This document shows, piece after piece, positions 22,387 to 58,910 of a DNA stretch of 64,000 nt. Each line of letters begins with the position of its first letter. Positions within the stretch are counted from its first letter, which is position 1. This DNA comes from Candidatus Omnitrophota bacterium (lineage in GTDB: Bacteria; Omnitrophota; Omnitrophia; Omnitrophales; Aquincolibacteriaceae). A program made the position numbers and the translations under genes. Where the stretch lies: the NCBI GenBank assembly GCA_022711115.1, contig JAKLFP010000002.1, positions 143,674 to 207,673 of the forward strand, given 5' to 3'. Below the pieces are notes generated by a model, which was not told the origin of the DNA, did no database searches, and saw only the letters and a program-made list of their open reading frames with translations.

Positions 22387-23492
22387 TACGAAATTGCAAT
22401 ACCCGTGAGAGGATCGAAGAAATGTGCCTTGCTCATATCAAAAACCACCTGCAGATCCTGGTTCATGGTGGCCGTATCTTGATTGGAAACCCGCACTACA
22501 AAGTTATTGCTGCCGGAAGTGACATACAAATAGATTTCAGAACCCATCGGCTCCACCACATCTACCGTAGCGGTGATAGTGAACTCTGGCCTCGCGTCCT
22601 GCGCGAAAATTTTATCGTAGATGTCTTCGGGGCGAATCCCCATCGTAATGGTTTGCCCTTTAAATTGGGCAATTCGGGAATAAAAATGAGGCAAAATGCG
22701 CAGTTTAATATTGCGATCGCTAAAGAAATAGTCGCCGTCCTCAGCAAGAATGGTGCCCTTCAGGAAGTTCATTGGTGGAGAACCGATAAAACCGGCCACA
22801 AATTTATTGTTTGGCCTTTCATAAAGATTCACGGGATCGGCCACCTGTTGGACAATGCCGTGATGCATGACTACAATGCGATCTCCAAGCGTCAAAGCTT
22901 CCACTTGGTCATGGGTCACATAGATCATGGTCGATTGCAACCGGTTGTGAAGTTTTTGAAGTTCCATGCGCATCTGAACGCGTAATTTCGCGTCAAGATT
23001 GCTGAGAGGCTCATCGAAAAGAAACACTTTCGGCTTGCGGACAATCGCGCGCCCAACCGCAACACGTTGCCGCTCCCCTCCGGAGAGCTCTTTCGGACGG
23101 CGCTTGAGCATTTCTAAAGTAAGCCCCAGGATCTCCGCAGCCTCATGAACACGTCGCTCGATCTCTTTAGCCGGATAGCGGCGCAATTTTAATCCGAACG
23201 CTAGATTTTCATACACCGTCATGTGCGGGTAAAGTGCATAATTCTGAAAAACCATGGCGATATCGCGATTCTTGGCAGGCACATCATTGACAAGCACGTC
23301 TTCGATGAAAATCTCACCTTGGGAAATATCTTCCAGACCGGCAATCATCCGCAACGTGGTTGACTTGCCACAACCGGAAGGTCCGACAAGGACTACAAAT
23401 TCGCGGTCATGGATTTCGAGATTGACATTATTAACGGCGCGGACATCATCTTTGTAGATCTTCGAAAGGTTCTTCAGTGAAACATTCGCCAC
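22386..23492 (-). CDS. ABC transporter ATP-binding protein, MalK/UgpC/MsmK family, with a C-terminal TOBE regulatory domain. GTG start
   Basis: Walker A GPSGCGKST, signature LSGGERQRVA, Walker B LFDEPLSNLD, H-loop VTHDQ, and a MalK-type C-terminal domain. No permease or binding protein is adjacent. Confidence 0.9.
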   Translation of the reverse strand: MANVSLKNLSKIYKDDVRAVNNVNLEIHDREFVVLVGPSGCGKSTTLRMIAGLEDISQGEIFIEDVLVNDVPAKNRDIAMVFQNYALYPHMTVYENLAFGLKLRRYPAKEIERRVHEAAEILGLTLEMLKRRPKELSGGERQRVAVGRAIVRKPKVFLFDEPLSNLDAKLRVQMRMELQKLHNRLQSTMIYVTHDQVEALTLGDRIVVMHHGIVQQVADPVNLYERPNNKFVAGFIGSPPMNFLKGTILAEDGDYFFSDRNIKLRILPHFYSRIAQFKGQTITMGIRPEDIYDKIFAQDARPEFTITATVDVVEPMGSEIYLYVTSGSNNFVVRVSNQDTATMNQDLQVVFDMSKAHFFDPLTGIAIS

Positions 23493-45375: not shown

Positions 45376-45755
45376 GAATTCTGGGCGGCCTGGGCGAATT
45401 TGAATTGCAGCTGGGTCAGGAGAGCTTTGAGCATATCGGCTTCCTCCGCGCTTAAATTCCCCTTTGTTTTATCACGAAGCGCGATTAAAAGGTCGATGGA
45501 CTCCTTGGCGGATTCCAATTGGACCTCGCGTTCGTTCGTCATGGGATTGGGTATTTCCCCCAAATGCATGAGGGCTTGGTAGCCAAGAGATTGAATCAGA
45601 CTCAGGAAAGACTGGGAAGTTTCAGGTATTTTCTCCGCTTCCCTGGGCGCAGGCGCTTTTTCTTTGACGTTTTCCACCTGTTCCTTCCAGCTTTCATCGA
45701 CTTTCTTTTCGGAAAATCGGATATCTCTGTCCATTGTTATCCACTCCTGCTTCAA
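45372..45755 (-). CDS. DUF1844-like small acidic protein. The track start at 45755 is TTG; the first ATG is at 45734
   Basis: The central block FLSLIQSLGYQALMHLGEIPNPMT resembles the conserved DUF1844 core. Otherwise charged and low-complexity. Confidence 0.4.
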   Translation of the reverse strand: MKQEWITMDRDIRFSEKKVDESWKEQVENVKEKAPAPREAEKIPETSQSFLSLIQSLGYQALMHLGEIPNPMTNEREVQLESAKESIDLLIALRDKTKGNLSAEEADMLKALLTQLQFKFAQAAQNS

Positions 45756-45774
45756 AATTCCTGCTGCCAGTTAA

Positions 45775-45850
45775 AAAAAAGAGGTTCGTGACCGAGTGGG
45801 GATCTGGTGGCCACGAACCTCTGCAGGTGAGTCGAGACCCGTAAGTCTCG
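45775..45850. terminator. Two stem-loops: a 13-bp stem flanked by an A-run that reads as a U-run on the minus strand, plus a short cgagac/gtctcg hairpin. Probable terminator of the transposase transcript
   Basis: gaggttcgtgacc...ggccacgaacctc has 1 mismatch. On the minus strand it is followed by TTTTTTTT. Confidence 0.4.
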
Positions 45851-45900
45851 CAATGGTTAAACTATACTCCATAAATGGCATTTTGTCACGAAAAAAATAC

Positions 45901-46742
45901 CTAACCTACCCTGGCAAATCCGGGTATTGCCAGGGTTAGTCCACCAAGCAGCTTTTTATAATCTGAAGTTCTCTTTGCGTATCTTGATGCTCTGCCACAA
46001 ATTTCTCGTATGCCCTAGGGACTATTGAGAAGACATGGTCGAAATGGCATAAATCTTCGCCTTGGTTTTTCTGGATATATTCCCGATAAGATGAATACTC
46101 CCAGTCCGAAGGCGATGAAACTAGCCCTGCAGAACATGGATTTATATGAATGTAACGCGACAAATGCAACGCCTGAGCATCGTTGTTGACAAGAACATAT
46201 TGGAATCGCGATTCCCAAAGCGTACCTTTTCGGCGGATTTTGAGATTGAAATAGCGCGAGTAACTATGAAGTACAAGCCGCATAAAATCCGATATACCCC
46301 TTTGCGTAACCTGCGCCAAAAGCAAATGCAAATGAGTCGGCATAACGCAATAGGCAATAATTTCAATACGTTCATCACTTTGAGAATTTCTTTTATCATT
46401 TTTATCATCTAAAAGAGAAGGCCGTTGGGACTTGGAAAAAGAGGTCTTGGGATGGGCGCTTTTGTAAAACCGAAGCGTTTCAATCATCCTCAGGAATTCG
46501 TCAGGATAGCGAAATATTTCAAATCCCGCGATACTTCGAGCGAAGACGTGATAAAAACAACCCGTTACAAGCGGAACTTTCCGTTGGGGCATATTCGCGT
46601 TGTCAAAATACCTTTCTTGATTGTCAGTGGGGCTACCGACCCCTTGTCAAATCCTGGATTTGACAAAACTAAGAGTATCATAATATTGAATAAAAATCAA
46701 ATATAAATTGAAGAAAAAGCATGTCAAATCCCGGATTTGACA
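45901..46742. mobile_element. REPtron-like unit: the RAYT gene flanked by REP-like hairpins at 45901-45939 (cctggcaa...ttgccagg stem with an aatccgggta core), 46645-46665 (tgtcaaatcctggatttgaca) and 46722-46742 (tgtcaaatcccggatttgaca)
   Basis: Two perfect 21-nt palindromes differ by one base, and a third related hairpin overlaps the RAYT stop. The shared core is aaatcc(c/t)gg. Confidence 0.5.
45936..46592 (-). CDS. IS200/IS605-like HuH tyrosine (Y1) transposase of the REP-associated (RAYT) type
   Basis: HuH motif YCVMPTHLHLLL, catalytic-Tyr region LSRYIHINP. About 218 aa, with no second (TnpB) ORF. Flanked by REP-like palindromes. Confidence 0.8.
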   Translation of the reverse strand: MPQRKVPLVTGCFYHVFARSIAGFEIFRYPDEFLRMIETLRFYKSAHPKTSFSKSQRPSLLDDKNDKRNSQSDERIEIIAYCVMPTHLHLLLAQVTQRGISDFMRLVLHSYSRYFNLKIRRKGTLWESRFQYVLVNNDAQALHLSRYIHINPCSAGLVSSPSDWEYSSYREYIQKNQGEDLCHFDHVFSIVPRAYEKFVAEHQDTQRELQIIKSCLVD

Positions 46743-46777
46743 GGGTTTTCAAGGAGGAAGATAAAAACGGCAGAAAA

Positions 46778-46815
46778 AAAGAGGGGCAAGTCCCCTTCCT
46801 TGCCCCTCTTTTTGA
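46778..46815. terminator. Bidirectional rho-independent terminator immediately 3' of the giant gene
   Basis: aaaaaaa-agaggggcaag-tccccttc-cttgcccctct-ttttt is a perfect 11-bp GC-rich stem with an A-run and a T-run on either side. Confidence 0.6.
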
Positions 46816-46832
46816 TCCCCAAATTGTTTGGA

Positions 46833-49800
46833 TTACGCGGCTTTCGACGTCGCCTGGATCGTCAGGATATCGGACCAGAGCTTCGCCAAACCCGCTAATT
46901 TCATCTCATCGATGCCAAAGTACGCCTTCACCCGCTTCAGAACATCATCGCCAAGCTGACGGTTCAAAAGCGCCATGGCATCCATATTCTTGATCGATAC
47001 GTTCAGTTGTGCCGCCTTCATGGCCAAGAGACCTCTCAGACCCGCGTAGGCCTTGTTCCCTTTTTGGCTGTCAAACACCGTTCCGCTGAATTCCTTGTCT
47101 AGCATCTCCGGCATATCTTCGATCAAAAGAACCAGATGCTCTCCTCGATCCATCTCGGCAGTCAAGGCAGGATCCATCTTCCGAAGGTCACGGAAAACCT
47201 CACCCTCCGCCGTGCGGATCGCTTGGGCCGCTTGAAGCGTATTCGCAAAATTAATCGTCATACGGTTATCGATCAGCGAGCCTCGATAATCCGTCGTCTG
47301 CTGGATATTATCCCTGATATCCGCTTGGATTGCCAACTGCTCCGCTACCGAAACCTTATCGTTAACAACCAAAATACGGACAACCGCTCTGGGGTTCATT
47401 CCCAGCTGAAGTTTCAACTCATTCAGCCTCGCGGCATCGGGCAGTTCTTTCATCACGATCAGCACACCGCCAATATCGGTCGAAACAGAAATCACGGCAT
47501 TCGTCATGATCGACTTAGCAACCTCGGATTCGAGGAACTTGGTCCAATCCATTTCTCCGGTCTTGAGTGCGACCAATGTCGTCAAGGCAGTCACAACTTG
47601 TTCCACAGTCGGATTGCCAAAGGCAGGCACTACGATTTTCGCGACCACATCATTCAGAGTATCTGTTCCATACTTAAAAGGTTCACTTTCCAATTTTCTC
47701 AGGATTTCCGGTGCTAGCAGCCTCCTGACCTGATCAACCAATTCCTGGCGGACTTCGATCTCCAACTTGATCACCGGCAATTGAGGCCCCGCCTCCCTCA
47801 CCTCGGAGCGGGTCAATCGCCCCTTCAGTGCTAATTTAACAGCTTCGATAGTTCCAGGTCGCTGGCTCCGATCAGTTTCAGCTTTTAGGATACTATCTTC
47901 AAGAGCATTCATGCTGTTCGCAAAAAAGTCATTCCTCGTTTCCAACACGGCCATATGATGCAAGCTAGGGTATGATCCAGTCCTGATGGCAAAAGCGTCC
48001 AACCAATGCATGACATCTTCCTCACGAGTTTGGATCGTGTCAGCCGCAGCTATCGTTATTTCCCATGCGCTGACCACGCGATCAATGGTCTGCATTATGT
48101 TCGCAGATAATTTCCCCCTCACCTCGGAGCGGGCAGGACTGCGATATACAGTTTCTCCGCGCAATGTAATTTGCGCCGGTAACATTAAACCATCCGTTGT
48201 TTCTATCCGTAATTTGGAAAATTTTCCGCCAATATCTCGAAAGGGCACATGCCTGGCTTCGTCAAGATCAGTGACGAGTATACGCATCATTTTCCCTACC
48301 GATTTTCCTTTAGCATCAAGGGCCGTGACAAACATAACACTCCCTGCATTTAAACCATTTTGACGGATCGGATTAAGATTCAGTCGAACAAGATCTTTGG
48401 CATTGATCGGCTGATCTAGCCGCAGGGTGTATTCTCTTGCCTGCGTTGTTTTTCCATCCACGTGTCCAGTTATGATTTGGGTACCTAAGCCTATCACATG
48501 GAATTGACTCATTCTTACTTCGGAACGAGGCCCTCCTAAAAATCCTTCTGCCCCTCCTCCTCCGATGTCCGGCGTAAAGTCATATCGGCCTTGTTTCACA
48601 TTGATGGTTGCCGATTCAGGGCCTGTTAACGTAAATGAAAAGGTTCTCGCTTCGTGCACATTGATCCCCTGAACATTATTGATGTCAATCGTGTAATTCT
48701 GAGGCGTGTTCAAAACTCCAGTCAAATTAGCACGCCAGGTCTTCCCTTCGGCATCTTGAATCTCATAGCCGACAACGGGAGCGTTTGTACTCCCTAAGGA
48801 AAAGGTGATCCCATTGGGAAACTGCGTCGGGAGATCCACATTATTGGTGTAATTTGCAAAAACACCCCCAAAACTCGCCGTATTTTCTCCCACATAATTG
48901 AATGTGAATGTGTTCGTCTCCGTAACCTTGAGCTCCCCAACCACATTCGTACTGCTCACAAAATTACCCAACCCAACAAATGGCAATGGCGTGACGCTGG
49001 CAGTTTGATTCCCAGGCGGAACATCGGGAGCAAAATTCCAAGAACCCATGACTAGATCAGCGTTCTTAGGACCTTGCCCTTCAAAAACATAGACCATCTG
49101 ACGGACCTGCGTCGGATCAATCTTACGAGCCATTTGGTCCAAAGGCAGCGTGTATTTTTGCGAGCTGGGAGTAATACCGCTTAAAATGCCTGTCCAAGTA
49201 TTCGTATTGGCATCTTTAACCTCGACCTTCAAATGATCCAGATTGGGACTCGCAATCGAAAAGGTTAATCCGTTCGGATAAAGACTTTGAAAGTTAATAT
49301 TATTGGTATATTCAAACACCGTTCCCGCATAACCGGTAGCATTCGTGCTCGAGTAACTCATGCTCATGGTGTTTGTCCCGGTAATATTATTGAAAACCAC
49401 TTCACCTCCTGGCCCTGTGAAATTCATCGGATTAACTTGCGGCAGCGGTGTAATGGCAGCACCCTGATTGCCAGGAGGAATCGAGGGAACATAATCCCAA
49501 GATCCTAAAACAAGATCCGCGCTCTTGGGACCTTGCCCTTCAAAAACATAGACCACCTGCCTCACCTGAGTCGGATCAATCTTTTGTTGAAGGAGGTTGA
49601 GCGACAGCGTGTATTTTTGTAAACCCGGAGTGATGCCGCCAAGCATCCCTCTCCAAGTGTTGGTATTCGCATCTTTGACCTCCACTTTCAAGTGATTCAG
49701 ATTGGGGCTTGCGATCGAAAACGTCAGACCATTCGGATAAAGACTTTGAAAGTTAATGTTATTGGTATATTCAAACACAGTGCCCGCATATCCCGTAAAA

Positions 49801-52800
49801 TTCGTACTCGTATAACTCGCAGTCAGCGTATTGGTGCCCGTGATATCATTGAAAACCGATTCACCAGTCGGACCTGTAAAGGTCGTCGGATTCACTTGCG
49901 GCAGCGGCGTGATGGCAGTACTTTGATTTCCGGGCGGAATGATAGGAACGTAATCATAAGGACCAAGCTCAATCACATAGGTCTTCTGCCCTTCTCCTGC
50001 GGCGGTGAACACAATCTCCCGGATCTTGGTCGTATCGATCCCGTATATCTGATTCAAATTCACCGTGTATTTCTGAGGCGTCTCGGTAATGTCGCTAACA
50101 TTGCCACGCCAAGATCTTCCGTTCTCATCCTTGATCTCGAGAACCAACGAAGTGGCATCCAAACTGCCTACCGAAAAGGTAAGTCCATTCGGGAATTGAC
50201 TCGCAAAATCCACGTTATTGGTGAAACTTGAAAAAACACCCCCGAAGCTCGCGACATTGATACCGCTGTAACTCAAACGAAGAGCATTGGTCCTGATCAC
50301 CGTAACATCGGCAACCGTGTTCGTGCTGTCGGTGTAACTTCCCGTATTATTATTGACAGGCAACGGCGTGATCAAAGCACCCTGATTGGCTGCGGGCAAA
50401 ATCGGAGGAACATAGCTGTAGGGTCCAAGTTCGATCACATAGGTCTTCTGCCCTTCCCCTACCGCAGTGAAAACGATCTCTCGGATCTTAGTCGTATCGA
50501 TCCCGAATATTTGATTCAAGTTGACCGTATGCTTTTGAGCAGTCGCGCTAATACCGCTGATATTCCCACGCCAAACGTTCCCGTTCTCATCCTTGATCTC
50601 AATGCCCAAAATCGTCGCATTCGTGCTGGAAACTGAAAAGGTAAGACCATTGGGAAATGCGCTTGCAAAATCGACGCTATTAGTAAAACTTGAGTAAACC
50701 CCTCCATAACTATCCGCACTCGGTCCCGCATAATTCAGCATCACAACATTGGTGTTTTGCGCTGTGGCCAGAACCGATGCGTTCGTGCTATTAAAAGTAC
50801 CGAAGTTATTAAACGGCAAAGGGGTGATGTTGGCCGCTTGATTCCCAGGCGGAATATCGGGAATAAAATTCCAAGAGCCCATGACAAGATCGGCACTCTT
50901 CGGGCCTTGCCCTTCAAAAACATAGACCATCTGACGGACCTGCGTCGGATCAATCTTCCGAGCTATTTGGTCCAAAGGCAGCGTGTACTTTTGCTGATCC
51001 GGCGTGATGCTGCTAAGCATGCCAGTCCAGGTGTTGGTATTGGCATCCTTAACCTCGACTTTTAAATGATCCAGATTGGGACTGGCAATCGAAAAGGTCA
51101 GACCATTCGGGTAGAGATTCTGAAAGTTGATATTATTCGTGTATTCAAACACTGTCCCCGCATAACCGGTGGCATTCGTGCTCGCATAACTCATGCTCAG
51201 GGTATTGGTCCCAGTCACATTATTGGTAACTACCTCGCCTGTTGGTCCTGTAAAAGTGGTGGGATTGACCGTTGGAAGCGGTGTAATGTCCGCGGTTTGA
51301 TTGCCGGGAGGAATCGACGGAATATAGTTAAAATTTCCCCAATCCACATAGAGCGTTTTCTGTCCCTGACCTTCGATCACAAGCGTGATTTCCGTGATAT
51401 GCGTCTGATCAAGCGCTGGAGCATATTGCGTCATAAAACTGAGCGGAATATTAAAGCCTTTTCCTGAAGGCGTCAGATTGGATAGATATGCCGCAAAAAC
51501 ATTACCTCTCCCGTCCTTGAACTCAATCTTCACCCTTGAAAGATTGGGACTCGCTGCGAAGAGTCTCAAACCAGTCGGATAATTGGTCACCAAATTGATG
51601 GGGTTGTCTGCAAAATTGAATGCGGGACCCGCATAACTGGCAGTTCTGGCGCCGTTGACATTCACGGTCAAAAAGTTTTGCTCGTTTACCGTGTTCGTGA
51701 TCGTCGTACCGTCGTTGGAGTCAAAACTCCATAAATTCTGAACGGTCGGAAGCGGAGTCGCGGCTTTCTTCACGGCGCGGTAAACCTGCATGGGATTCAG
51801 CGAGAAATTTTGAATGAAATCAAGCGGCTGACCGGGTAAAACGAATTGATTGGTAACCAAAGTTCTCCACGGGCCGTTCACCTGCGCTGCGGCTTGAAGA
51901 TCAATGGCTCCAGGGCTGTAAGGCGCTTCCACGCGTACAGTTCCATTTTCACTAATAGACATCTGAGGCGGCATGAGCCCAGCCTCTGCGGCGTTTGTCA
52001 TTGTCACAGGCGCTTGGGATATTCCTACCACACTCATCAAACCAAACATAAGGGTCCGCAAAAGCGACGGCCTCATACTTCTGACAAACTGCTCTTGCGG
52101 CTGCGCCATCTCTTGACCCCTCATCTCCGAACGCATGCGGCTCCGAATAGCTTCATCAAGCGCGCGCAATGCGGGCTCATCTATTAGACCAAATTCAACT
52201 AATTTTTCCTCCACTTGCCTGCTTGCGTTCGCCAGTGCGAGGGCATTCCGCACGGCCCTCGTCGGATCAATTTTGAAAGCTACAACATCCGCCACTGTTT
52301 CGAGAGCCCAATCCGACTCGTCTCCCTGCACCCATTGCAAAAATTTCTCGATACCCGCATCAACCGCCCCCCTCACTTCGGATCGGGAGGCAACAGCGGT
52401 TTTGACCGCATCGACAAGTTGAACACCTGAAAAGGGCTTTGACAAAAATCCAACACTGGATTGTGCTACTGCTTTTCCTTCCACTGCGCTCAACCCTTCT
52501 GTCCCACCGCTCATCACAAGTGCCGCAATCGAATTGTTTTTAGCCCGGGCAGCTTCGACAATAACACTTTTTATAACCCCATCGCTTTTTTGAAAGGTAT
52601 CCTGACCATGCAGGATCCTGTCCGTGACCAGTACGTCAAAATCGTTTTCACTGATGGCTTGACGAGCGCCGTCAACCGTATCTGCGAATATCACGATCGC
52701 CCCTTCGCTCTCAAGTATTGCTTTTACTACTTCAAGAATCATGGGCTCATCATCAACAGCAAGAATCCGTTTTCCCGCAAGATTGATATCCGTAGGCAGA

Positions 52801-55800
52801 ACCGCCCTCACCTCGGAGCGGGTGGATTCGTCATATCCCTCAAGACGGATGTGGAGAGGCGATTGCCATTGCATCGTGGGGGTACTTGAACCAGTCCAGG
52901 AATTATATTGGGAAATTTTGTTGATATGCCCCTTGGGGTCTATCTCAAGCAGATAAAGCTGGTCCCCTAGCCGCTGGGGCGCTGTGTCCCTGAAACGTGC
53001 CAATTTAACAGAGAACTTTCCGCCTTCCCAGGAAATCCGACCTACGATCAGCATACCGCGCCAACCGAAATGCAATATACCGCCAAGCGGCTTGGACAGA
53101 ACCAAATCCTGACCCCAAAGACCTCGTAATAGCGTAAACCATGGCCTTGTAATCATCCTGAAACCGAAATCGACCCCACGAGAAATCGGCGCTAACAGAC
53201 GAAAGCCAGAAACACTTGTTAATGAACGAAGCAATTTGTTATCAGCCTCTGGATCTCTTCCATTCCCTACAAGCATCGGCGATAGCGGACGTCCTGTGGC
53301 ATCGAGATTGTCTGTCGCTTTCAAAAAGGCTCTCTGCAGACGCTGATAAATTTCATAACTTGGCATGGCACGTCCATAAGCCAACCACACCAGAAAAGTC
53401 AAAAAGATAAAATCATGCCGCTTGAGATAAATGACCTGGTTGTTCGCGGTAACCAAAAATGCCCGGCTTGATTCGCTCAAACGTCCGGCAATGCTCTGAA
53501 TCGTCTGTCTGGGAACGACGCTTTCATCATTCGCAAGCGCGTCTTTTTCCAGTTGTTGGATAAACGGCCTCCAATTTTCCTGATCCGTTGCCAGCATTTC
53601 GATTGCCGTGTCGATATTAGACCTCACCTCGGAACGGGCGGATTCGTCGCGTTTCATTCGTTCTTGTCTGGCTATGAACCACTTCCCAAAATAGTAGAGG
53701 CTGGTGCCCGCTAAAATTGCCGCCGGAACCACCATAGCCCCACGAATGATCCTGCCGAGTGAAGCAAAATTTATGACCGCACGATCCGATAGTGAAGCCT
53801 TGCCTTGCGGAGGTCTGACATTCACAACATCACGAATGAATGCCGTTGCGGCAGGATATCCGGGCTTACTGAACGGAAAAGTCGTCAGCCCTTTTAATAC
53901 AAAATCAATTTGGCCGCGTGTATTTCTTTGATGCTCATCCCATGCCATCACAAGGATCATGGCCCGCATGACTGTGAATTCCGATTCGGGGTGCACGGTC
54001 ACGCGGGTTGCGCCGCCGGTCCGTACCAGCCGCGTCCCACTGATCATTCCAATCCGTGTCGGAATGCCCCCGGCTCCGACCACTTCGGCTCTTTCCAAAT
54101 CGCTTTGATTGATAATAAAATCCCGGGAAATGAGACTTCCGAAGATTCGCGCATTCCAGAGACTGATGAGCCACAAGGCCCTCTGGTCCATCTCCGAAAA
54201 ATTTCTCACGGCCGGGTATTTAGCCAGAAATTCCGATTTTTTCTGAGCCCAGAGATTGTTGATATGCCCATTGACTGTCTGGACACGTTCTACCGGTGTC
54301 TTTTCCTCAAAATAGGTCCAGGCATGAAAGCGCTGATACTTTCGAGCGTCATCGATCCACTGATTCACTGACGGATAGGCCTTCCCAAGCCGGTATTCCT
54401 GAAATTGAGGAAAACCTTGCGCCTTGAGCGCGGCAGCACCTGCCGACTGCACAGGTCCTTGTGTTCTGGGAGCCTCCCCTGCTTCCACGGTTAAAGCACT
54501 TGCCAAAAGACCCAAACTGGCGGCAAAAAAAGTACGTCGCGTCACGGGCTGAAGTATTTCACGTTCTGACACTCTCAGTTCGGATCGCAAATTTTCTCTC
54601 GTCTCTCGAGCGCTTTCAATCAACGTCCCAAGTCTTTGGAACTCACTCGGCATGTTCAACGAAACGCCTGGCTGGGCCCGCAATCTTTCCGCAGCGGTTA
54701 TCATGGCTGCTAATTGCCCGTCTGCCTCTGCATCAACTGTTCCGCTTTGGACACGATCCTGTAATGCCCAAAATTGGCGTTCCAATTTTTTCACATCATC
54801 CGGCGTCGCCCTCAATTCGGCACGGGCCGCCCCAGAAGAAGAAAAGCCTAAACGACGTTCAAAGAAAGCGCGAGCTGCCCCTGCATAGTCGCGAAACTCC
54901 GGTCTACCGCTTGCCGGTTGATACGGAATTTCGGAAACTCGAAGTTCGTTTCGTCTTGTCGAATCCGCATGGGCAACCACAAGACTTGCGCCCAAGGCCA
55001 TCGCATCATATAAATGCGTCACATGAAACGCCTGCATTTCCTGACCCGGCTTAAAAAGCTGAGGAAAACTGACGACGAGACCGGAAACTGCCTGACCCTT
55101 TTGATCAACCGCCCTTGATTCCGCACGGAGTTCGATCGCTTTTATTCTGCCTGTTGCTTTCAGTTTATCGATCAGTGTGTTAATATCGGCAATGTCAAGC
55201 GTCCGCAGTTCCGAGCGGCCGGTAGATGTTCCTATGAAAGGGCGAAAACCGTTAACCCTCTCCCCAAGCGCCCAGCGAAACTGTTTGACAATGAACGCCG
55301 GAACCGCCGCTTGATACAGATGGATCATGTTTAACATTTCACCAAGAAAATATCGCAGTCTCTTGCCCCGTAATTCCGAGCGGCCGGTCGTTGCGCCAGT
55401 CTTTTCAATCTTCATTTCTCTCAGAGAACTGTCATTAGCATCATTCACAACTATCGTTTCACGCCCACTCCTGATAAACATTTCTTGAACATTAGCGGGC
55501 AAATCCTGCATCGTCAGACTAGATGCCGGTAAGTCCATCTTGGTTACTGGCGCGTTCGGCGTCGTGCCCCCCGCAACATTCACAGCCATCTTTGTGCCAG
55601 CCGTCGTATTCGTAGAGCTGAGCCGTGCAAGCGCCGGAGAATTCGTCGAAAAGATGAAAACACCACCATCTCCTTTATTTAAATAATATCCGGACCGAGC
55701 CTCCCAATTCATCAGATTATGTGTCTCTTCCGTTCTTACACCATTTATGGCAACCTCAAACGTTGTCGCCATCCGTCCATTCGGTAGTTGGAACAAATTC

Positions 55801-57983
55801 GGTGACATCGTGCCTGCATTCCCTTGCGCTCGCGCCACGTTGAGTGACAACGCCAAACCCATCAACGCTAACCCTATCTTCTGCCACCAATTCGATCGCA
55901 GCTCAGAACGACCTGCTAATGCCGGAGCCGGAGTTTTAGCCGCTGTCTCGACGAGCGCCAATGATGGTACTGCAATGGATGTTGCTCTGGAAGCCGGCGC
56001 AGTCGCATTCACAATCGTCGCTTTTTCTCCCATGACCGCAGATTGACTTGTTGCGGTCGCGGTACGAATCATGGCGGTCGTGCCTTGCTGAACGGCTATA
56101 TCCCATGTCTTGGTACTATCATTAAATACAAGCGTTCGAGTTCCCGTTTTACCATCTACCACGTACGTCATCGACCCTCCGCGCGTGGTCATGATCGGTA
56201 CTGCGCCTTTATCCGCCATATATCGGAAATTCTGATCCATAGTTGCGGTCGTTGTGATATCAGCCGCTGCGTCCAAGGCCGCGCTGACCACGAGTCGAAG
56301 CGTTTTAGAGCCGTCCTTGCCCATCGGATCTCCAGTCATCGTGACAGCATTTTCAATGGTCGCAATGTCAAAACGGGTCTTGGTGCGCTGTAACATGGTA
56401 TCGCGGTAAAGCTTCTCATCACTTTTTTCGCTGAGACGCGGCGTGACGATCCCGTAGCTGATGTCATGATCGCGGAAGATCTCGCTCAAACCGTCCGTGT
56501 GATAACCCCCGGTAATCAGAACCGCTTTGCCGATATTTTCTTCTGAAAGTTTTTTTTGGATTTGCACAAAAAAGGCATCTTCACGTTTCCTCGCGAGATC
56601 ATAGAAATCAATGCCGCTTGTGAAAAGTTCGGACATGCGTTTGGAAAAATCGGGCGGCATGACTTTCTGTTTCATAAGCGATTCGTCATTTTTGGAGACG
56701 GCCACCGCCTCCGTCAAACGCCCGACCATGGACTCGATGGTGAGGATCTTTTGTTTGTCCTGCACTTTGCGCGATTCCGTGCGGTTGAGTTCCAGGTGCA
56801 GCAGTTTGCGGAGGAGTTCGCCATCCCGATAAAGTTCGAGAAGATTCTTCTGCGCGGGCTCCTTGGCCAAGGTATCAAGCATTTTAGCGAAAAGGAATTC
56901 GATCTCTTCAAAAAGAGCTTTCGGATCCAGTTCATTTTTGAGGACCACATAACCGGCATAAAGACTGAAATTCGGATAATCGCTGAACTTGAATCCTCTG
57001 GGTCCGGCTTCCGCCGCCAGTTGTTCCAGAACCCATCGGGGCAATATTTCTTTCGCATCCTTACCCGTACCGGCCCTGCCCATACTGATATTGCCTTCCT
57101 GAAAATTTTCGATGGCCCGGACAAGTGCCTCCGAAGTTCTTTTTTCGCGAAGAAACTTCACGAGGGAATCCCGTTCGGCCAGCGCCTTGTTCCGCTCCAC
57201 GTCTTTTTCCATTGTCTGAATAACAAGAAGACGCGTGATTTGCGGCCAACCGACCTGGGCGAACAGGCTTTCCAGGTCCACGTTCAGAACCTTCTTCGCT
57301 TGTTTGACAAGCGATTTTACATAGGGCAAAAATTCGCGCCGCCCCATCTCAAAGCTTTTCCAATCCGCGATAAGCCCGCGTGTATCCGGTGTAAACGTTT
57401 TGGACGCAACTTGCTCCAGCCTCACGTCGAAAACTCGAAAGAATTTTTCCACATCCGTTTCGGCCCCAAAGACTTTCTTCAAGGCGTTGTAATTTTGTTT
57501 ATAGAGGGAAGCATTTTCGATACCGATCGCCTCCACTTCCGGCGGTGCCTCCAGCAAATAAAGTTCGGCACCCGTCAATTCGCCCTGTTTTGCCAGATTA
57601 TCGGAAAGCTTCAGATTGCGTTCCTTGTCCGGGAAAAGACGGAGATAATCCGCATTCAGTTTTTCAGAAGCGCCTTCCACGAACACGGTTTTGATCGCGT
57701 ATTTTTTGTTCAGGTATTCCAGGAGCTGCTTGATCTTGATTTGCGCCTGATAATTGGCGTGGGCATTCTGAATGTGAAGCACAAATTTCGGATCTTGTTT
57801 GACTGGCGCCTCATAAATTTCATCGATGCTTGCAAGGTCCGCAGGAATATCAAGGCTCAGAAAATTAGGGATTTCCCGAGGGTTGGCTATTTCGATGCGA
57901 GCGCCCGGATCTGCCCATGTGCACTGCGTGGTCAAAAAACAAACTACTGTTATTATCGCGACCACTTTTAAATACTTTTTCAT
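46833..57983 (-). CDS. Giant modular protein (3716 aa) of unknown function. It has an N-terminal signal peptide and an embedded CheY-like receiver domain. About 7 tandem 150-aa beta-sandwich repeats are present. At least 13 RSE[LV]R junction motifs occur, and internal Sec/Tat-like hydrophobic segments follow some of them
   Basis: An uninterrupted 11.15-kb frame. ATG at 57983 is preceded by a GGGGG Shine-Dalgarno. The signal peptide is MKKYLKVVAIITVVCFLTTQCTWA. The receiver domain is RILAVDDEPMILEVVKAIL...VLVTDRILHG...LSKPF. See findings for the repeats and motif. Confidence 0.8.
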   Translation of the reverse strand: MKKYLKVVAIITVVCFLTTQCTWADPGARIEIANPREIPNFLSLDIPADLASIDEIYEAPVKQDPKFVLHIQNAHANYQAQIKIKQLLEYLNKKYAIKTVFVEGASEKLNADYLRLFPDKERNLKLSDNLAKQGELTGAELYLLEAPPEVEAIGIENASLYKQNYNALKKVFGAETDVEKFFRVFDVRLEQVASKTFTPDTRGLIADWKSFEMGRREFLPYVKSLVKQAKKVLNVDLESLFAQVGWPQITRLLVIQTMEKDVERNKALAERDSLVKFLREKRTSEALVRAIENFQEGNISMGRAGTGKDAKEILPRWVLEQLAAEAGPRGFKFSDYPNFSLYAGYVVLKNELDPKALFEEIEFLFAKMLDTLAKEPAQKNLLELYRDGELLRKLLHLELNRTESRKVQDKQKILTIESMVGRLTEAVAVSKNDESLMKQKVMPPDFSKRMSELFTSGIDFYDLARKREDAFFVQIQKKLSEENIGKAVLITGGYHTDGLSEIFRDHDISYGIVTPRLSEKSDEKLYRDTMLQRTKTRFDIATIENAVTMTGDPMGKDGSKTLRLVVSAALDAAADITTTATMDQNFRYMADKGAVPIMTTRGGSMTYVVDGKTGTRTLVFNDSTKTWDIAVQQGTTAMIRTATATSQSAVMGEKATIVNATAPASRATSIAVPSLALVETAAKTPAPALAGRSELRSNWWQKIGLALMGLALSLNVARAQGNAGTMSPNLFQLPNGRMATTFEVAINGVRTEETHNLMNWEARSGYYLNKGDGGVFIFSTNSPALARLSSTNTTAGTKMAVNVAGGTTPNAPVTKMDLPASSLTMQDLPANVQEMFIRSGRETIVVNDANDSSLREMKIEKTGATTGRSELRGKRLRYFLGEMLNMIHLYQAAVPAFIVKQFRWALGERVNGFRPFIGTSTGRSELRTLDIADINTLIDKLKATGRIKAIELRAESRAVDQKGQAVSGLVVSFPQLFKPGQEMQAFHVTHLYDAMALGASLVVAHADSTRRNELRVSEIPYQPASGRPEFRDYAGAARAFFERRLGFSSSGAARAELRATPDDVKKLERQFWALQDRVQSGTVDAEADGQLAAMITAAERLRAQPGVSLNMPSEFQRLGTLIESARETRENLRSELRVSEREILQPVTRRTFFAASLGLLASALTVEAGEAPRTQGPVQSAGAAALKAQGFPQFQEYRLGKAYPSVNQWIDDARKYQRFHAWTYFEEKTPVERVQTVNGHINNLWAQKKSEFLAKYPAVRNFSEMDQRALWLISLWNARIFGSLISRDFIINQSDLERAEVVGAGGIPTRIGMISGTRLVRTGGATRVTVHPESEFTVMRAMILVMAWDEHQRNTRGQIDFVLKGLTTFPFSKPGYPAATAFIRDVVNVRPPQGKASLSDRAVINFASLGRIIRGAMVVPAAILAGTSLYYFGKWFIARQERMKRDESARSEVRSNIDTAIEMLATDQENWRPFIQQLEKDALANDESVVPRQTIQSIAGRLSESSRAFLVTANNQVIYLKRHDFIFLTFLVWLAYGRAMPSYEIYQRLQRAFLKATDNLDATGRPLSPMLVGNGRDPEADNKLLRSLTSVSGFRLLAPISRGVDFGFRMITRPWFTLLRGLWGQDLVLSKPLGGILHFGWRGMLIVGRISWEGGKFSVKLARFRDTAPQRLGDQLYLLEIDPKGHINKISQYNSWTGSSTPTMQWQSPLHIRLEGYDESTRSEVRAVLPTDINLAGKRILAVDDEPMILEVVKAILESEGAIVIFADTVDGARQAISENDFDVLVTDRILHGQDTFQKSDGVIKSVIVEAARAKNNSIAALVMSGGTEGLSAVEGKAVAQSSVGFLSKPFSGVQLVDAVKTAVASRSEVRGAVDAGIEKFLQWVQGDESDWALETVADVVAFKIDPTRAVRNALALANASRQVEEKLVEFGLIDEPALRALDEAIRSRMRSEMRGQEMAQPQEQFVRSMRPSLLRTLMFGLMSVVGISQAPVTMTNAAEAGLMPPQMSISENGTVRVEAPYSPGAIDLQAAAQVNGPWRTLVTNQFVLPGQPLDFIQNFSLNPMQVYRAVKKAATPLPTVQNLWSFDSNDGTTITNTVNEQNFLTVNVNGARTASYAGPAFNFADNPINLVTNYPTGLRLFAASPNLSRVKIEFKDGRGNVFAAYLSNLTPSGKGFNIPLSFMTQYAPALDQTHITEITLVIEGQGQKTLYVDWGNFNYIPSIPPGNQTADITPLPTVNPTTFTGPTGEVVTNNVTGTNTLSMSYASTNATGYAGTVFEYTNNINFQNLYPNGLTFSIASPNLDHLKVEVKDANTNTWTGMLSSITPDQQKYTLPLDQIARKIDPTQVRQMVYVFEGQGPKSADLVMGSWNFIPDIPPGNQAANITPLPFNNFGTFNSTNASVLATAQNTNVVMLNYAGPSADSYGGVYSSFTNSVDFASAFPNGLTFSVSSTNATILGIEIKDENGNVWRGNISGISATAQKHTVNLNQIFGIDTTKIREIVFTAVGEGQKTYVIELGPYSYVPPILPAANQGALITPLPVNNNTGSYTDSTNTVADVTVIRTNALRLSYSGINVASFGGVFSSFTNNVDFASQFPNGLTFSVGSLDATSLVLEIKDENGRSWRGNVSDITETPQKYTVNLNQIYGIDTTKIREIVFTAAGEGQKTYVIELGPYDYVPIIPPGNQSTAITPLPQVNPTTFTGPTGESVFNDITGTNTLTASYTSTNFTGYAGTVFEYTNNINFQSLYPNGLTFSIASPNLNHLKVEVKDANTNTWRGMLGGITPGLQKYTLSLNLLQQKIDPTQVRQVVYVFEGQGPKSADLVLGSWDYVPSIPPGNQGAAITPLPQVNPMNFTGPGGEVVFNNITGTNTMSMSYSSTNATGYAGTVFEYTNNINFQSLYPNGLTFSIASPNLDHLKVEVKDANTNTWTGILSGITPSSQKYTLPLDQMARKIDPTQVRQMVYVFEGQGPKNADLVMGSWNFAPDVPPGNQTASVTPLPFVGLGNFVSSTNVVGELKVTETNTFTFNYVGENTASFGGVFANYTNNVDLPTQFPNGITFSLGSTNAPVVGYEIQDAEGKTWRANLTGVLNTPQNYTIDINNVQGINVHEARTFSFTLTGPESATINVKQGRYDFTPDIGGGGAEGFLGGPRSEVRMSQFHVIGLGTQIITGHVDGKTTQAREYTLRLDQPINAKDLVRLNLNPIRQNGLNAGSVMFVTALDAKGKSVGKMMRILVTDLDEARHVPFRDIGGKFSKLRIETTDGLMLPAQITLRGETVYRSPARSEVRGKLSANIMQTIDRVVSAWEITIAAADTIQTREEDVMHWLDAFAIRTGSYPSLHHMAVLETRNDFFANSMNALEDSILKAETDRSQRPGTIEAVKLALKGRLTRSEVREAGPQLPVIKLEIEVRQELVDQVRRLLAPEILRKLESEPFKYGTDTLNDVVAKIVVPAFGNPTVEQVVTALTTLVALKTGEMDWTKFLESEVAKSIMTNAVISVSTDIGGVLIVMKELPDAARLNELKLQLGMNPRAVVRILVVNDKVSVAEQLAIQADIRDNIQQTTDYRGSLIDNRMTINFANTLQAAQAIRTAEGEVFRDLRKMDPALTAEMDRGEHLVLLIEDMPEMLDKEFSGTVFDSQKGNKAYAGLRGLLAMKAAQLNVSIKNMDAMALLNRQLGDDVLKRVKAYFGIDEMKLAGLAKLWSDILTIQATSKAA
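48540..51950. repeat. About 7 tandem coding repeats of about 456 bp (152 aa) inside the giant gene, in two alternating sequence subtypes
   Basis: Units begin ...IPPGNQ.A.ITPLP and end ...(F/Y)(I/V)P. Subtype 1 carries TFTGPTGE...KVEVKDANTNTW; subtype 2 carries IKDENG..WRGN. Several units are at least 85-90% identical at protein level. The antisense frames repeat as well (MIQIGACDRKRQTIRIK... at 49692 and MIQIGTGNRKGQTIRVE... at 51066). Confidence 0.8.
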
Positions 57984-58178
57984 TACACCCCCCTTTGCGG
58001 TGTCTTTGAGAAACTCTTTTTAAGACTATATTAAAACTATTTAAAGAGTAACACCTTTTTGACAATTTTCAAGGGACAATGATTAACATTCTTCCTAATA
58101 CAACATCTATCAAAATAAAATATTTAAGGTCTATATTCATTCTAGATAATGACTCTAAATTGTTACAGATCCTGGATT

Positions 58179-58910
58179 TCAAGTTTTTTCAACAAAACGG
58201 ACAGCCAGACCTAATTGTTCCTTTCGAACTTCCTTGCGGCATATCTCCCCTGAAATTTGATATTCTTCCGGAAAGTTTGCGCTCGGAAATATATGGATCT
58301 CAACCTTAAGGCCCTCGATAGGATTCAACGCATCAATCCTATGAGAAACCCCAAGGTCAAGATATTCCCCGAAAAGCCCCCCCTCACTGATATTTGTCGC
58401 AATGGCGGTGGTTTGGATCATTTCTCCGCTTGCGGTAAATATCTTTAATTCCAGCGGAACCGCAACGTGCATGCGGTGGCTCCGCCGCTGTTCTAGCTGA
58501 TAGCCAAGCGACTCCTGGGGGGTTTTAACACCCTTGGCCATAATCTTCTTGTCGGGATCCTTAACGAAAAGAAAGGGCCCAAAAGATTCGGCCACCTGCT
58601 TCTCATCCGAGCAGATATCCACTTTCCCCGAGGGAAAGTTATCCTCGATACAGTGGGCCATTTCTGGCGTCACCCCGTAAAGCACGCTATGCTTGGGACG
58701 GATGCAAACCGTCAAAAGACGTCGCATCCCTATCGCATCCAGAGGACCCGACTCTTGGAAGTTTAGGATAATCTGCTGCAAGCCGTAGCGCCGGATGTTT
58801 TTCTGAATCTTCCAGGCTACCTCCTGCACCGATTCAAAGGTCGGCATGCCCTTGAGATCAAAAACCGAAACCCCGCCGATTTCTCGCGTTGAATAATGGA
58901 ATTTAGTCAT
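58179..58910 (-). CDS. STAS (anti-sigma-antagonist-like) - PilZ fusion protein; putative c-di-GMP receptor. ATG at 58910; the track start at 58997 is GTG
   Basis: N-terminal STAS-like fold (MTKFHYSTREIGGVSVFDLKG...). C-terminal PilZ motifs QRRSHRMHV (RxxxR) and NISEGGL (D/NxSxGG). Confidence 0.6.
   Translation of the reverse strand: MTKFHYSTREIGGVSVFDLKGMPTFESVQEVAWKIQKNIRRYGLQQIILNFQESGPLDAIGMRRLLTVCIRPKHSVLYGVTPEMAHCIEDNFPSGKVDICSDEKQVAESFGPFLFVKDPDKKIMAKGVKTPQESLGYQLEQRRSHRMHVAVPLELKIFTASGEMIQTTAIATNISEGGLFGEYLDLGVSHRIDALNPIEGLKVEIHIFPSANFPEEYQISGEICRKEVRKEQLGLAVRFVEKT

What the first reader, a model, noticed from the sequence alone, without database searches (positions are those of the whole stretch)
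45901..46742. REP-associated tyrosine transposase (RAYT) with flanking REP-like palindromes directly 3' of the giant gene, and a partial REP-like core at its 5' side
The HuH/Y1 transposase (YCVMPTHLHLLL ... YIHINP) has no partner TnpB ORF, which is typical of domesticated RAYTs. Two perfect 21-nt palindromes, tgtcaaatcc(t/c)ggatttgaca at 46645 and 46722, lie between it and the giant gene stop. A related hairpin at 45901-45939 (core aaatccgggta) overlaps the RAYT stop. The same core (atcctggattt) recurs at 58163-58181 in the spacer on the 5' side of the giant gene. The giant gene is therefore bracketed by REP-like sequence. This is consistent with an island of accessory origin. It also offers a substrate for RAYT-mediated rearrangement.
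Basis: partly seen in the sequence, partly recalled or inferred. Interest (0 to 1): 0.6.

Follow-up and report, generated by a model that had tools for sequence, protein, structure and literature searches.

The report
RAYT-like nuclease gene with private hairpins
This is an intact RAYT-like DNA-cutting enzyme gene in an uncultured Omnitrophota bacterium, flanked by three copies of its own hairpin sequence; the hairpins are not spread through the surrounding DNA and the neighbouring giant gene is not a recent insertion, so the locus is an ordinary example of a known kind, with one odd lead, namely that relatives of this gene keep turning up at the ends of giant genes.

Summary
The observation mostly holds. 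ORF 45936-46592 (-) is an intact 218-aa Y1 HUH protein. It is closer to RAYT/TnpA_REP than to IS200 transposases. Two perfect 21-nt palindromes lie upstream and a related hairpin abuts the stop codon. The "core" at 58163-58181 is a chance-level match, so the giant gene is not bracketed.

No further palindrome copy occurs in 82.7 kb of this genome. The block PilZ-giant-RAYT-DUF1844-aroQ-accBC is syntenic in a relative whose neighbouring proteins are 61-87% identical, and GC content is flat. It is therefore not an accessory island.

All ten independent homologue loci carry genome-specific hairpins on both sides of the gene. The window and its orthologous locus L020 differ by compensatory stem changes. 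Only two dispersed copies turned up in about 195 kb across the ten loci.

The best reading is a vertically inherited REPtron/TIRtron-type module: a RAYT-like nuclease with essentially private cognate hairpins. It belongs to a large family that the RAYT classifications I read do not place.

One lead remains unexplained. Three apparently independent homologues sit directly 3' of giant genes (3,716, 7,211 and 37,921 aa), and a fourth sits at the 5' border of a giant-gene cassette.

The parts
45936..46592 (-). RAYT-like (class-2 TnpA_Y1) HUH/Y1 nuclease gene, 218 aa, intact. HUH motif at H87/H89, catalytic Y147, signature YIHINP.
   Evidence: The catalytic residues are invariant in the 45-sequence alignment. 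AF2 model has pLDDT 90.2. Top fold match is 4er8_A.
46717..46746 (-). Distal upstream hairpin 'b'. On the gene-sense strand it reads ACCCTG-TCAAATCC-G-GGATTTGACA, a perfect 10-bp stem (46722-46742) with a 5' ACCC foot.
   Evidence: Its orthologue in L020 sits at the same relative position and shows compensatory stem changes.
46639..46666 (+). Proximal upstream hairpin 'a': ACCCC-TTGTCAAATCC-T-GGATTTGACAA. Its foot is on the opposite strand to that of 'b', so a and b form an inverted, REPIN-like doublet with 77 nt start-to-start spacing.
   Evidence: The 116-nt doublet folds as one long hairpin, -20.4 kcal/mol, z = -6.0.
45908..45937 (.). Downstream 'double-foot' hairpin 'c': ACCCTGGCAA/TTGCCAGGGT stem with a 9-nt loop, abutting and overlapping the stop codon.
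   Evidence: A hairpin follows the stop codon in all ten homologue loci: it abuts the stop in most, and lies 10-40 nt beyond it in L024, L031 and L032.
46700..46727 (-). Sigma70-like promoter match TTGACA-16-TATATT (11 of 12). Its -35 hexamer lies inside hairpin b, and hairpin a would lie in the 5' leader.
   Evidence: This is a consensus match only, and no equivalent match was found in L020, so it is weak.
46776..46813 (-). Context: strong intrinsic terminator of the giant gene (15-bp stem plus T-run), lying between the giant-gene stop and hairpin b.
46833..57983 (-). Context: 3,716-aa giant gene (Response_reg domain, internal repeats of about 459 nt) directly upstream of the module.
   Evidence: Orthologous to the 2,878-aa gene of L020.

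Best explanation
The locus is a resident, vertically inherited REPtron/TIRtron-type module. It consists of one intact RAYT-like Y1 HUH single-strand-DNA nuclease gene plus three copies of its cognate hairpin: an inverted doublet upstream and a double-foot hairpin at the stop codon.

Shown:
- The protein has a RAYT-type sequence and a RAYT-type predicted fold.
- Every homologue examined carries its own genome-specific hairpins on both sides.
- Between the window and its orthologous locus L020, the hairpin stems have changed by compensatory substitutions.

Inferred by analogy with E. coli TnpA_REP: the protein binds these hairpins when the DNA is single-stranded (at replication forks or in extruded cruciforms). 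It then cuts and rejoins next to them through a 5'-phosphotyrosine on Y147.

In this genome the hairpins have essentially not been disseminated, so they are private to the module. The module behaves as a slowly evolving, very-low-mobility unit. It has kept its place since the split from a relative with about 77% protein identity, but in a third relative it sits on the other side of the PilZ+giant-gene cassette.

Inferred and weak: the hairpins may also act in cis, insulating the gene from read-through out of the giant gene and possibly serving autoregulation.
For: Protein:
- Pfam Y1_Tnp.
- NCBIfam REP_Tyr_transpos at 2e-19, with no IS200 hit. 45 of 45 family members hit the RAYT model and only 2 of 45 weakly hit the IS200 model.
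- PDB search: 4er8 at 3e-9 against ISDra2 TnpA at 9e-5.
- AF2 model with pLDDT 90.2. Foldseek top hit is 4er8_A with TMt 0.74; IS200/IS605 TnpAs score about 0.6.
- H87, H89, Y147, H149 and N151 are invariant in the alignment.
- Y---NP is the class-2 signature of Quentin et al. 2018 (PMC6006769).

Module:
- Ten of ten independent loci have cognate hairpins on both sides.
- Five of the ten stem pairs differ by compensatory changes between the window and L020, and 91.7% of cells are paired.

Vertical inheritance:
- L020 has the same gene order. RAYT is 54% identical; the neighbours are 61-87% identical.
- The identical protein sits in the same context in 4 assemblies.

Paralogues:
- The two copies in L031 are 41% identical and have different hairpins. 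This is the class-2 pattern, not the IS pattern.

Low dispersal:
- 0 extra copies in 82.7 kb of this genome.
- 2 dispersed copies in about 195 kb across the ten loci, both intergenic.

Precedent:
- RAYT-like genes flanked by non-dispersed inverted repeats or hairpins (TIRtrons, and REPtrons in species that lack REP families) are described in PMC3733652.
Against: - No biochemistry exists for this family.
- The whole-genome copy number of the palindrome is unknown, because the source genome is absent from both scanned collections.
- The protein scores 69.9 bits, below the 80-bit NCBIfam equivalog cutoff.
- The hairpins lack the canonical 5' GT[AG]G foot.
- Perfect dyad symmetry and compensatory changes fit a dsDNA operator for a dimeric protein as well as they fit an ssDNA hairpin.
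- The different position of the module in the P0006 genome shows that it is not completely immobile.
Confidence: 0.6

Rival explanations
1. It is an autonomous, single-copy IS200-like insertion sequence of about 840 bp, running from about 45908 to 46746. The flanking hairpins are its left- and right-end subterminal structures, and it can still excise and insert as a unit.
For: - The hairpins hug both ends of the gene in all ten loci, and the right one abuts or closely follows the stop codon.
- In the P0006 genome the unit lies 5' of the PilZ+giant cassette rather than 3' of it. This implies at least one move of the whole unit.
- Homologues occupy unrelated contexts in other genomes.
Against: - The Y motif is Y---NP, not the Y---Q of IS200 subclass 1.1, and the protein is 218 aa against about 152 aa.
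- Only 2 of 45 members reach the IS200 model, and weakly.
- The position is unchanged in a genome whose proteins are only about 77% identical.
- No second copy exists in 82.7 kb.
- The intragenomic paralogues in L031 are 41% identical, not near-identical.
- There are two hairpins upstream in inverted orientation, rather than one per end.
Confidence: 0.15
2. The palindromes are mainly double-stranded operator sites, for the HUH protein itself or for another dimeric regulator. They control transcription of the gene and are not recombination substrates.
For: - A sigma70-like promoter has its -35 hexamer inside hairpin b, and hairpin a lies downstream of it.
- The palindromes have perfect dyad symmetry.
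- An upstream doublet recurs in L020, L026 and L036.
Against: - A cognate hairpin also sits at or just past the stop codon in every locus.
- Cognate copies occur in unrelated intergenic regions 3-9 kb away in L028 and L031.
- The promoter match is not reproduced in L020.
- The closest solved relative binds a single-stranded REP hairpin (4er8).
Confidence: 0.1
3. One reading: a domesticated RAYT serves a genome-wide dispersed REP family, and REP-like sequence brackets an accessory island that contains the giant gene.
For: - The protein is RAYT-like.
- The palindrome doublet looks like a REPIN.
- Relatives show a few dispersed copies.
- The genome-wide count is untested.
Against: - No extra copy in 82.7 kb. 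By my arithmetic, at an E. coli-like density of about one per 8 kb (from memory) about 10 would be expected, giving P of about 3e-5.
- The 58163 'core' is at chance level.
- The block is syntenic in L020 and in the P0006 contig.
- GC content is flat.
Confidence: 0.08
4. It is a decaying relic: an inactive transposase gene and leftover hairpins with no current function.
For: It appears to be single-copy and its hairpins are not dispersed in this genome.
Against: - The ORF is intact.
- All catalytic residues are invariant across 45 homologues of 33-56% identity.
- The fold prediction is confident.
- The perfect stems are maintained by compensatory change.
- The family comprises 1,776 50%-identity clusters at E <= 1e-30.
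Confidence: 0.05

Closest known systems
E. coli TnpA_REP (RAYT) and its REPtron (PDB 4er8; Quentin et al. subclass 2.2)
   Same: - Y1 HUH fold; it is the best sequence and fold match.
- Y---NP tyrosine motif, WE motif and C-terminal W..SS motif.
- No TnpB partner.
- The gene is flanked by inverted copies or doublets of a cognate palindrome.
- Low copy number and vertical inheritance.
   Different: - 218 aa against 165 aa, with an extra insertion at residues ~45-70 and a helical C-terminal tail of about 50 aa.
- HuH motif is THLH, not DHLH.
- Scores below the NCBIfam equivalog cutoff.
- The hairpins have an ACCC(T)G foot instead of GT[AG]G.
- The hairpins are not dispersed at REP-like density.
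TIRtrons/TIRYTs, and REPtrons in species lacking REP families (Di Nocera et al. 2013, PMC3733652; mostly Quentin subclass 2.1, Bertels Group 1)
   Same: - RAYT-like gene of about 215-240 aa.
- Flanked by element-specific inverted repeats, some of them self-complementary.
- The repeats are absent or rare elsewhere in the genome.
- Y motif Y[IV]HLNP and W[EQ] match the subclass 2.1 consensus.
   Different: - No Pfam-detectable C-terminal HTH or Bac_DnaA_C domain.
- The GGGGWSAS motif is not consistently present in the flanks printed (read by eye).
- The flanks here are true stem-loops, including an inverted doublet.
- The taxa (Omnitrophota, Patescibacteria, Elusimicrobia) are not listed for any subclass in the papers' tables that I read.
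IS200/IS605 TnpA (IS200, IS608, ISDra2; Quentin subclass 1.1)
   Same: - HUH/Y1 catalytic core.
- Subterminal hairpins next to both ends of the gene.
- The whole unit has evidently moved at least once.
   Different: - Y---NP, not Y---Q.
- About 65 aa longer.
- The IS200 HMM is essentially not matched.
- No identical copies were found.
- Position conserved across deep divergence.

Membership tests
RAYT / TnpA_REP (class 2 TnpA_Y1) | HUH motif plus a single catalytic tyrosine on a Y1 transposase fold | tested here: met
   H87-L-H89 and Y147 are invariant in 45 homologues. Pfam Y1_Tnp. AF2 plus Foldseek top hit is 4er8.
RAYT / TnpA_REP (class 2 TnpA_Y1) | Class-2 tyrosine motif Y---NP, as opposed to the Y---Q of IS200 (PMC6006769) | tested here: met
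   YIHINP in the window protein; the family consensus is YIHLNP.
RAYT / TnpA_REP (class 2 TnpA_Y1) | Scores above the curated NCBIfam equivalog threshold for REP-associated tyrosine transposase (NF047646) | tested here: not met
   69.9 bits against a cutoff of 80. The best E-value among 45 members is 4.7e-21. The family is related, but outside the curated equivalog.
RAYT / TnpA_REP (class 2 TnpA_Y1) | Gene flanked on both sides by its cognate palindromes (REPtron arrangement) | tested here: met
   Two upstream and one downstream in the window. The same holds in 10 of 10 homologue loci, each with genome-specific sequences.
RAYT / TnpA_REP (class 2 TnpA_Y1) | The flanking palindrome belongs to a family dispersed at high copy number in intergenic DNA of the same genome | tested here: inconclusive
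   0 further copies in 82.7 kb of this genome, allowing up to 4 mismatches in 21. Relatives show 2 dispersed copies in about 195 kb.
RAYT / TnpA_REP (class 2 TnpA_Y1) | Canonical 5' GT[AG]G tetranucleotide at the foot of the hairpin | tested here: not met
   The feet are ACCCTG or ACCCCT. These count as 'atypical secondary structures', as in subclasses 2.6 and 3.
RAYT / TnpA_REP (class 2 TnpA_Y1) | Single or low copy number with vertical inheritance (housekeeping-like behaviour, PMC5581495) | tested here: met
   One copy in the window plus extensions. Same position in L020, with neighbours 61-87% identical. The copy number for the whole genome was not tested.
IS200/IS605 insertion sequence | TnpA of about 150 aa with Y---Q motif that matches IS200 models | tested here: not met
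   218 aa, Y---NP. NF033573 is matched by 2 of 45 members at E about 1e-3.
IS200/IS605 insertion sequence | Multiple near-identical copies per genome | tested here: inconclusive
   None in 82.7 kb. The only intragenomic pair seen (L031) is 41% identical. The whole genome was not available.
TIRtron / TIRYT (subclass 2.1) | C-terminal HTH-like domain (Bac_DnaA_C, HTH_23 or HTH_28) and GGGGWSAS-type terminal inverted repeats | tested here: not met
   Pfam finds only Y1_Tnp. The C-terminus is helical but unassigned. GGGGWSAS fits 8 of 8 only in L020's RBS region and is absent or imperfect in the other flanks (read by eye in the flanks printed).

The most novel reading that the evidence does not exclude
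A clade of RAYT-like HUH nucleases in Omnitrophota is specifically linked to the borders of giant genes. In three apparently independent cases the module (cognate hairpin, then the gene) begins 3-95 nt after the stop codon of a giant gene: 3,716/2,878 aa in the window and its orthologue, 7,211 aa, and 37,921 aa. In a fourth genome the module sits at the 5' border of the PilZ+giant cassette. If this is real, the hairpin/HUH module may have a role tied to giant genes. Possible roles are 3'-end insulation or mRNA protection, single-strand DNA processing at the end of very long transcription units, or mobilisation and rearrangement of giant-gene cassettes.
Probability: 0.2. Interest if true: 0.7.

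Novelty: new member of a known kind. Interest (0 to 1): 0.4.

Why it matters
- It corrects an attractive but wrong reading. This giant gene is not on a REP-bracketed accessory island. It sits in a block conserved among related Omnitrophota.
- It documents a large family of RAYT-like proteins: 1,776 clusters at 50% identity, seen here in Omnitrophota, Patescibacteria and Elusimicrobia. NCBI's curated RAYT model does not capture the family, and none of the subclass consensus motifs or taxon lists in the published RAYT classification fits it cleanly.
- All ten family members examined carry cognate hairpins. The stems keep their pairing through compensatory change between the window and its orthologue L020, and the hairpins are hardly ever disseminated. 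The family is therefore a useful natural contrast to high-copy REP/REPIN systems for asking what RAYTs do when they do not spread REPs.
- The recurrent placement at giant-gene ends is cheap to test on the 176 complete Omnitrophota genomes now available. If it holds, it would add a new element to the unexplained biology of giant genes.

Tried and rejected
1. I scanned genome contigs and metagenome contigs for GTCAAATCCNGGATTTGAC.
   - The result was 7 and 10 singleton hits in unrelated taxa. None lay near a Y1 gene or matched the window.
   - One hit (L016) is a fold-back artefact at a contig end.
   - The source contig itself was not returned, so these scans say nothing about dispersal in the source genome.
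2. I extended the window with look-ups of its terminal genes. This added 8.9 kb and 9.9 kb with no new copies.
3. A relaxed search for CAAATCC-N(1-9)-GGATTTG, and a window-wide repeat search, found no other dispersed palindrome family.
4. The 58163-58181 'core' was rejected as chance. The rarA-PilZ spacer holds only AT-rich sequence and no cognate hairpin.
5. Rfam on 45600-47000 gave only sub-threshold miRNA-like hits that reflect generic hairpins.
6. A viral-contig scan with the family alignment found one distant (30%) relative, which was not useful.
7. The idea of a promoter inside the hairpin has an 11/12 match in the window but is not reproduced in L020. I kept it only as a weak inference.
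8. Alignment A3 contains a made-up placeholder row and was discarded. Only A4, built from real coordinates, is used.
9. I found no mention of IS200/RAYT genes next to giant genes in the two Omnitrophota giant-gene papers.
Full report
**1. What is in the sequence**

ORF 45936..46592 on the minus strand encodes an uninterrupted 218-aa protein that contains YCVMPTHLHLLL and RYIHINP.
- It matches Pfam Y1_Tnp at 38.4 bits, above the 23-bit cutoff.
- Its only NCBIfam hit is REP_Tyr_transpos (NF047646), at 2.1e-19 and 69.9 bits. That is below the 80-bit equivalog cutoff.
- Its best solved relative is E. coli TnpA_REP, 4er8, at 5e-7. The ISDra2 transposase scores about 1e-4.

The palindrome TGTCAAATCC[T/C]GGATTTGACA occurs at 46645-46665 and 46722-46742. 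The expected count is 0.01 per window. A third, related hairpin (ACCCTGGCAA / 9-nt loop / TTGCCAGGGT) lies at 45908-45937 and overlaps the stop codon. All three fold well as single-stranded DNA, with z-scores of -3.8 to -4.7. The upstream pair can also fold as one 116-nt hairpin, at -20.4 kcal/mol and z = -6.

The neighbours are the 3,716-aa gene (46833..57983, with a Response_reg domain) and a DUF1844 gene. There is no TnpB. A strong terminator at 46776-46813 separates the giant gene from the palindromes.

The claimed fourth 'core' at 58163-58181 is AGATCCTGGATTT. That is a 13-mer with one mismatch, of which 0.76 are expected by chance. It has no comparable stem, so I reject it.

**2. Source and dispersal**

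The identical protein is encoded on a 340-kb JGI contig (Ga0116241_10000065) and three other contigs, always in the same context. NCBI names it a transposase of a Candidatus Omnitrophota MAG.

Scans of the genome and metagenome collections for the 19-mer core returned only singleton hits in unrelated organisms.
- None lay next to a Y1 gene.
- None showed similarity to this locus: the only BLAST match, in L007, is to window 22777-23088.
- The source contig itself was not returned.

These scans therefore say nothing about the source genome.

Look-ups of the terminal genes of the window extended the sequence by 8,864 nt (100% identical overlap) and 9,853 nt (99.98% identical). In the resulting 82.7 kb there is no further copy of either hairpin variant, allowing up to 4 mismatches in 21. 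No other dispersed palindrome family is present in the window either. A REP family at E. coli-like density (about one per 8 kb, from my own knowledge) would give about 10 copies. A low-density family cannot be excluded.

**3. Synteny**

The homologue P0004 (54% identical) lies in the same gene order: PilZ, giant gene (2,878 aa), Y1 gene, DUF1844, LPG synthase, aroQ, accB, accC, PFK and onward.
- Twelve flanking proteins are 61-87% identical between the two genomes. The Y1 protein, at 54%, is the most diverged.
- The two giant proteins are orthologous, at 61% identity in the N-terminus and 31% in the C-terminus.

In the genome carrying P0006 (53% identical) the order is pheS, pheT, rarA, Y1 gene, 55-aa gene, PilZ, giant gene (3,744 aa). 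The cassette therefore sits at the same chromosomal place, but the Y1 module is on its other side.

GC content is flat at 0.44-0.52 across 36-64 kb.

The giant-gene block is thus conserved among relatives and is not a recent island. The Y1 module is mostly inherited vertically, but it has moved as a unit at least once.

**4. The family and its hairpins**

I obtained context for ten independent homologues of 44-54% identity. They include one from Patescibacteria and one from Elusimicrobia.

Every one is flanked on both sides by its own genome-specific hairpin. Examples:
- TGTACACACC-N-GGTGTGTACA in L020
- TTCCACTT-CGT-AAGTGGAA in L026
- CGTAAACAAACCT-CGT-AGGTTTGTTTACG in L030
- CCCCGACTGC-G-GCAGTCGGGG in L037

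The downstream hairpin abuts the stop codon in most loci and lies 10-40 nt beyond it in three. Several loci have an inverted doublet upstream, as the window does.

The window and L020 hairpins occupy orthologous positions. They share the ACCCTG foot and the outer and inner stem bases. They differ at five of ten stem pairs, each by a compensatory double change, and 91.7% of cells are paired. Slid-register controls score between 9.5% and 54%.

This co-variation of protein and hairpin is what is described for RAYT/REP pairs (PMC6006769).

Cognate hairpins are nearly confined to the gene flanks. Outside ±500 nt, about 195 kb in ten loci holds only two copies: L028 542-562 and L031 3107-3129. L028 also has an extra doublet 400 nt downstream. 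All of these are intergenic.

L031 carries a second family member that is 41% identical and has different hairpins. That is the class-2 pattern, not the near-identical copies expected of an IS.

**5. Classification**

- All 45 aligned homologues match the RAYT model, and only two weakly match the IS200 model.
- The family profile finds 4er8 at 3e-9 and ISDra2 TnpA at 9e-5.
- The AlphaFold model is confident: pLDDT 90.2, pTM 0.86.
- Its best Foldseek hit is 4er8_A, TnpA_REP bound to a REP hairpin, with TM 0.74 on the target. IS200/IS605 TnpAs follow at about 0.6.
- H87, H89, Y147, H149 and N151 are invariant. A C-terminal W..SSY.E motif and a helical tail are conserved.

In the scheme of Quentin et al. 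2018, the Y---NP motif places the protein in class 2, the TnpA_REP-like class. The YIHLNP and WE consensus resembles subclass 2.1, but no HTH domain is detected. The THLH HuH motif, the stem-loop flanks and the host phyla fit none of the published subclasses cleanly.

The family is large: 1,776 representatives at 50% identity score E <= 1e-30.

Di Nocera et al. 2013 already describe RAYT-like genes flanked by element-specific, sometimes self-complementary inverted repeats that are rare or absent elsewhere in the genome. They call these TIRtrons, or REPtrons in species that lack REP families (PMC3733652). Bertels et al. 2017 found that only RAYT groups 2 and 3 carry highly abundant flanking 16-mers (PMC5581495). 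The locus is therefore a new member of a known kind, possibly of an undescribed subclass.

**6. Mechanism**

Shown:
- an intact RAYT-fold HUH/Y1 protein
- cognate, structurally constrained hairpins on both sides
- vertical inheritance with rare relocation
- almost no dissemination of the hairpins

Inferred from the established biochemistry of TnpA_REP and IS608/ISDra2 TnpA (my own knowledge, plus the abstracts listed): the protein recognises the hairpin and adjacent foot bases on single-stranded DNA. It then cleaves and religates through a 5'-phosphotyrosine on Y147.

Weakly inferred: the hairpins may also act in cis. A promoter-like TTGACA-16-TATATT has its -35 hexamer inside hairpin b, but L020 shows no equivalent. 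In L030 and L037 the upstream hairpin starts 19 nt and 3 nt after the giant-gene stop, where it could act as a terminator or insulator.

Rivals:
- A still-active single-copy IS200-like element.
- Palindromes acting mainly as duplex operators.
- A decaying relic.

Each is weighed in its own section of this report.

**7. The unexplained lead**

Four homologues lie directly 3' of, and co-oriented with, very large genes:
- the window, 3,716 aa
- L020, 2,878 aa, orthologous to the window's giant gene
- L037, 7,211 aa, with Transgly, Transpeptidase, Bac_transf and HEAT domains
- L030, a called gene of 37,921 aa. The 9.8 kb that I hold of it is one open frame.

P0006 lies at the 5' border of a PilZ+giant cassette.

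The last ~3,270 aa of the L030 and L037 giants show no BLASTP similarity to the window's giant or to each other. The giant-linked Y1 proteins are not monophyletic in a star-like NJ tree. Downstream contexts differ in each case.

L026 and L028, whose phylum I did not determine, and the Patescibacteria and Elusimicrobia loci show no such neighbour. L036 is cut by a contig end.

If genes of 2,800 aa or more make up 1% of genes or less (my assumption), three of six independent contexts has a probability of about 2e-5. The caveats:
- The sample is small.
- I chose homologues on long contigs.
- Hidden shared ancestry is possible.

The two giant-gene papers do not mention Y1/IS200/RAYT neighbours. 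One of them does note many transposase-type flanks in general.

**8. Verdict**

The RAYT-like call is right at the level of protein family and local architecture. The dispersed REP family is not seen, and the accessory-island and bracketing ideas are refuted. Interest is moderate and rests mainly on the giant-gene association, which needs a proper survey.

Noticed in passing
window 45773-45852 (-), with a promoter-like site at 45861-45889 (-); L020 10735-10815: An 80-nt block between the RAYT-like gene and DUF1844 is 100% identical in the L020 genome, although the flanking intergenic DNA is unalignable and the neighbouring proteins are only about 77% identical. It has its own sigma70-type promoter (12/12 in L020, 10/12 in the window). 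It folds into a 7-bp hairpin, a single-stranded UCACCUGC linker, and a 14-bp terminator hairpin with a C-rich loop and a U-run (-33.6 kcal/mol, z = -5.3). There is no significant Rfam match. It is probably an undescribed small RNA.
   Followed up: partly
L030 1-10669; L037 1-10696; L020 1137-10648; window 45936-57983; P0006 context: RAYT-like homologues recur directly 3' of giant genes (37,921, 7,211, 2,878 and 3,716 aa), or at the 5' border of a PilZ+giant cassette. The giant genes' C-termini are not alignable with one another. The two Omnitrophota giant-gene papers I checked do not report this.
   Followed up: partly
window 55203-55393, compared with L035 18631-18651: The 99.98%-identical NCBI assembly (GCA_035390585.1) encodes a giant protein of 3,771 aa instead of 3,716 aa. 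The difference is one extra 165-nt (55-aa) repeat unit, so the giant gene shows copy-number variation of an internal repeat between assemblies of the same population.
   Followed up: partly
window 48789-51303: The giant gene contains diverged tandem repeats of about 459-462 nt (roughly 153 aa), at 60-83% identity.
   Followed up: no
L024 2546-3610, compared with the 287-kb contig: Two contigs encode the identical P0006 protein, the 55-aa gene and PilZ, but differ just downstream. One continues into a 3,744-aa gene. The other continues into a Peptidase_M28 gene on the opposite strand. This is either a presence/absence polymorphism of the giant gene or a misassembly.
   Followed up: no
L031 3107-3129 and 3597-4904: In the Patescibacteria locus, a dispersed copy of the RAYT's cognate hairpin (about 40 nt, with the loop triplet inverted) lies about 470 nt upstream of an IS110-family (Transposase_20) gene. 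From memory, IS110-family elements are known to target REPs in Pseudomonas.
   Followed up: no
L016 1-66: The metagenome contig Ga0116152_10135424 begins with a perfect palindrome of about 63 nt centred on the searched 19-mer. It looks like a fold-back assembly artefact at a contig end, not a REP copy.
   Followed up: yes
L020 11023-11052: The second downstream hairpin of L020 again supplies a -35-like hexamer (TGTACA-18-TATATT), this time just upstream of the DUF1844 gene. Hairpin copies may double as promoter elements for neighbouring genes.
   Followed up: no
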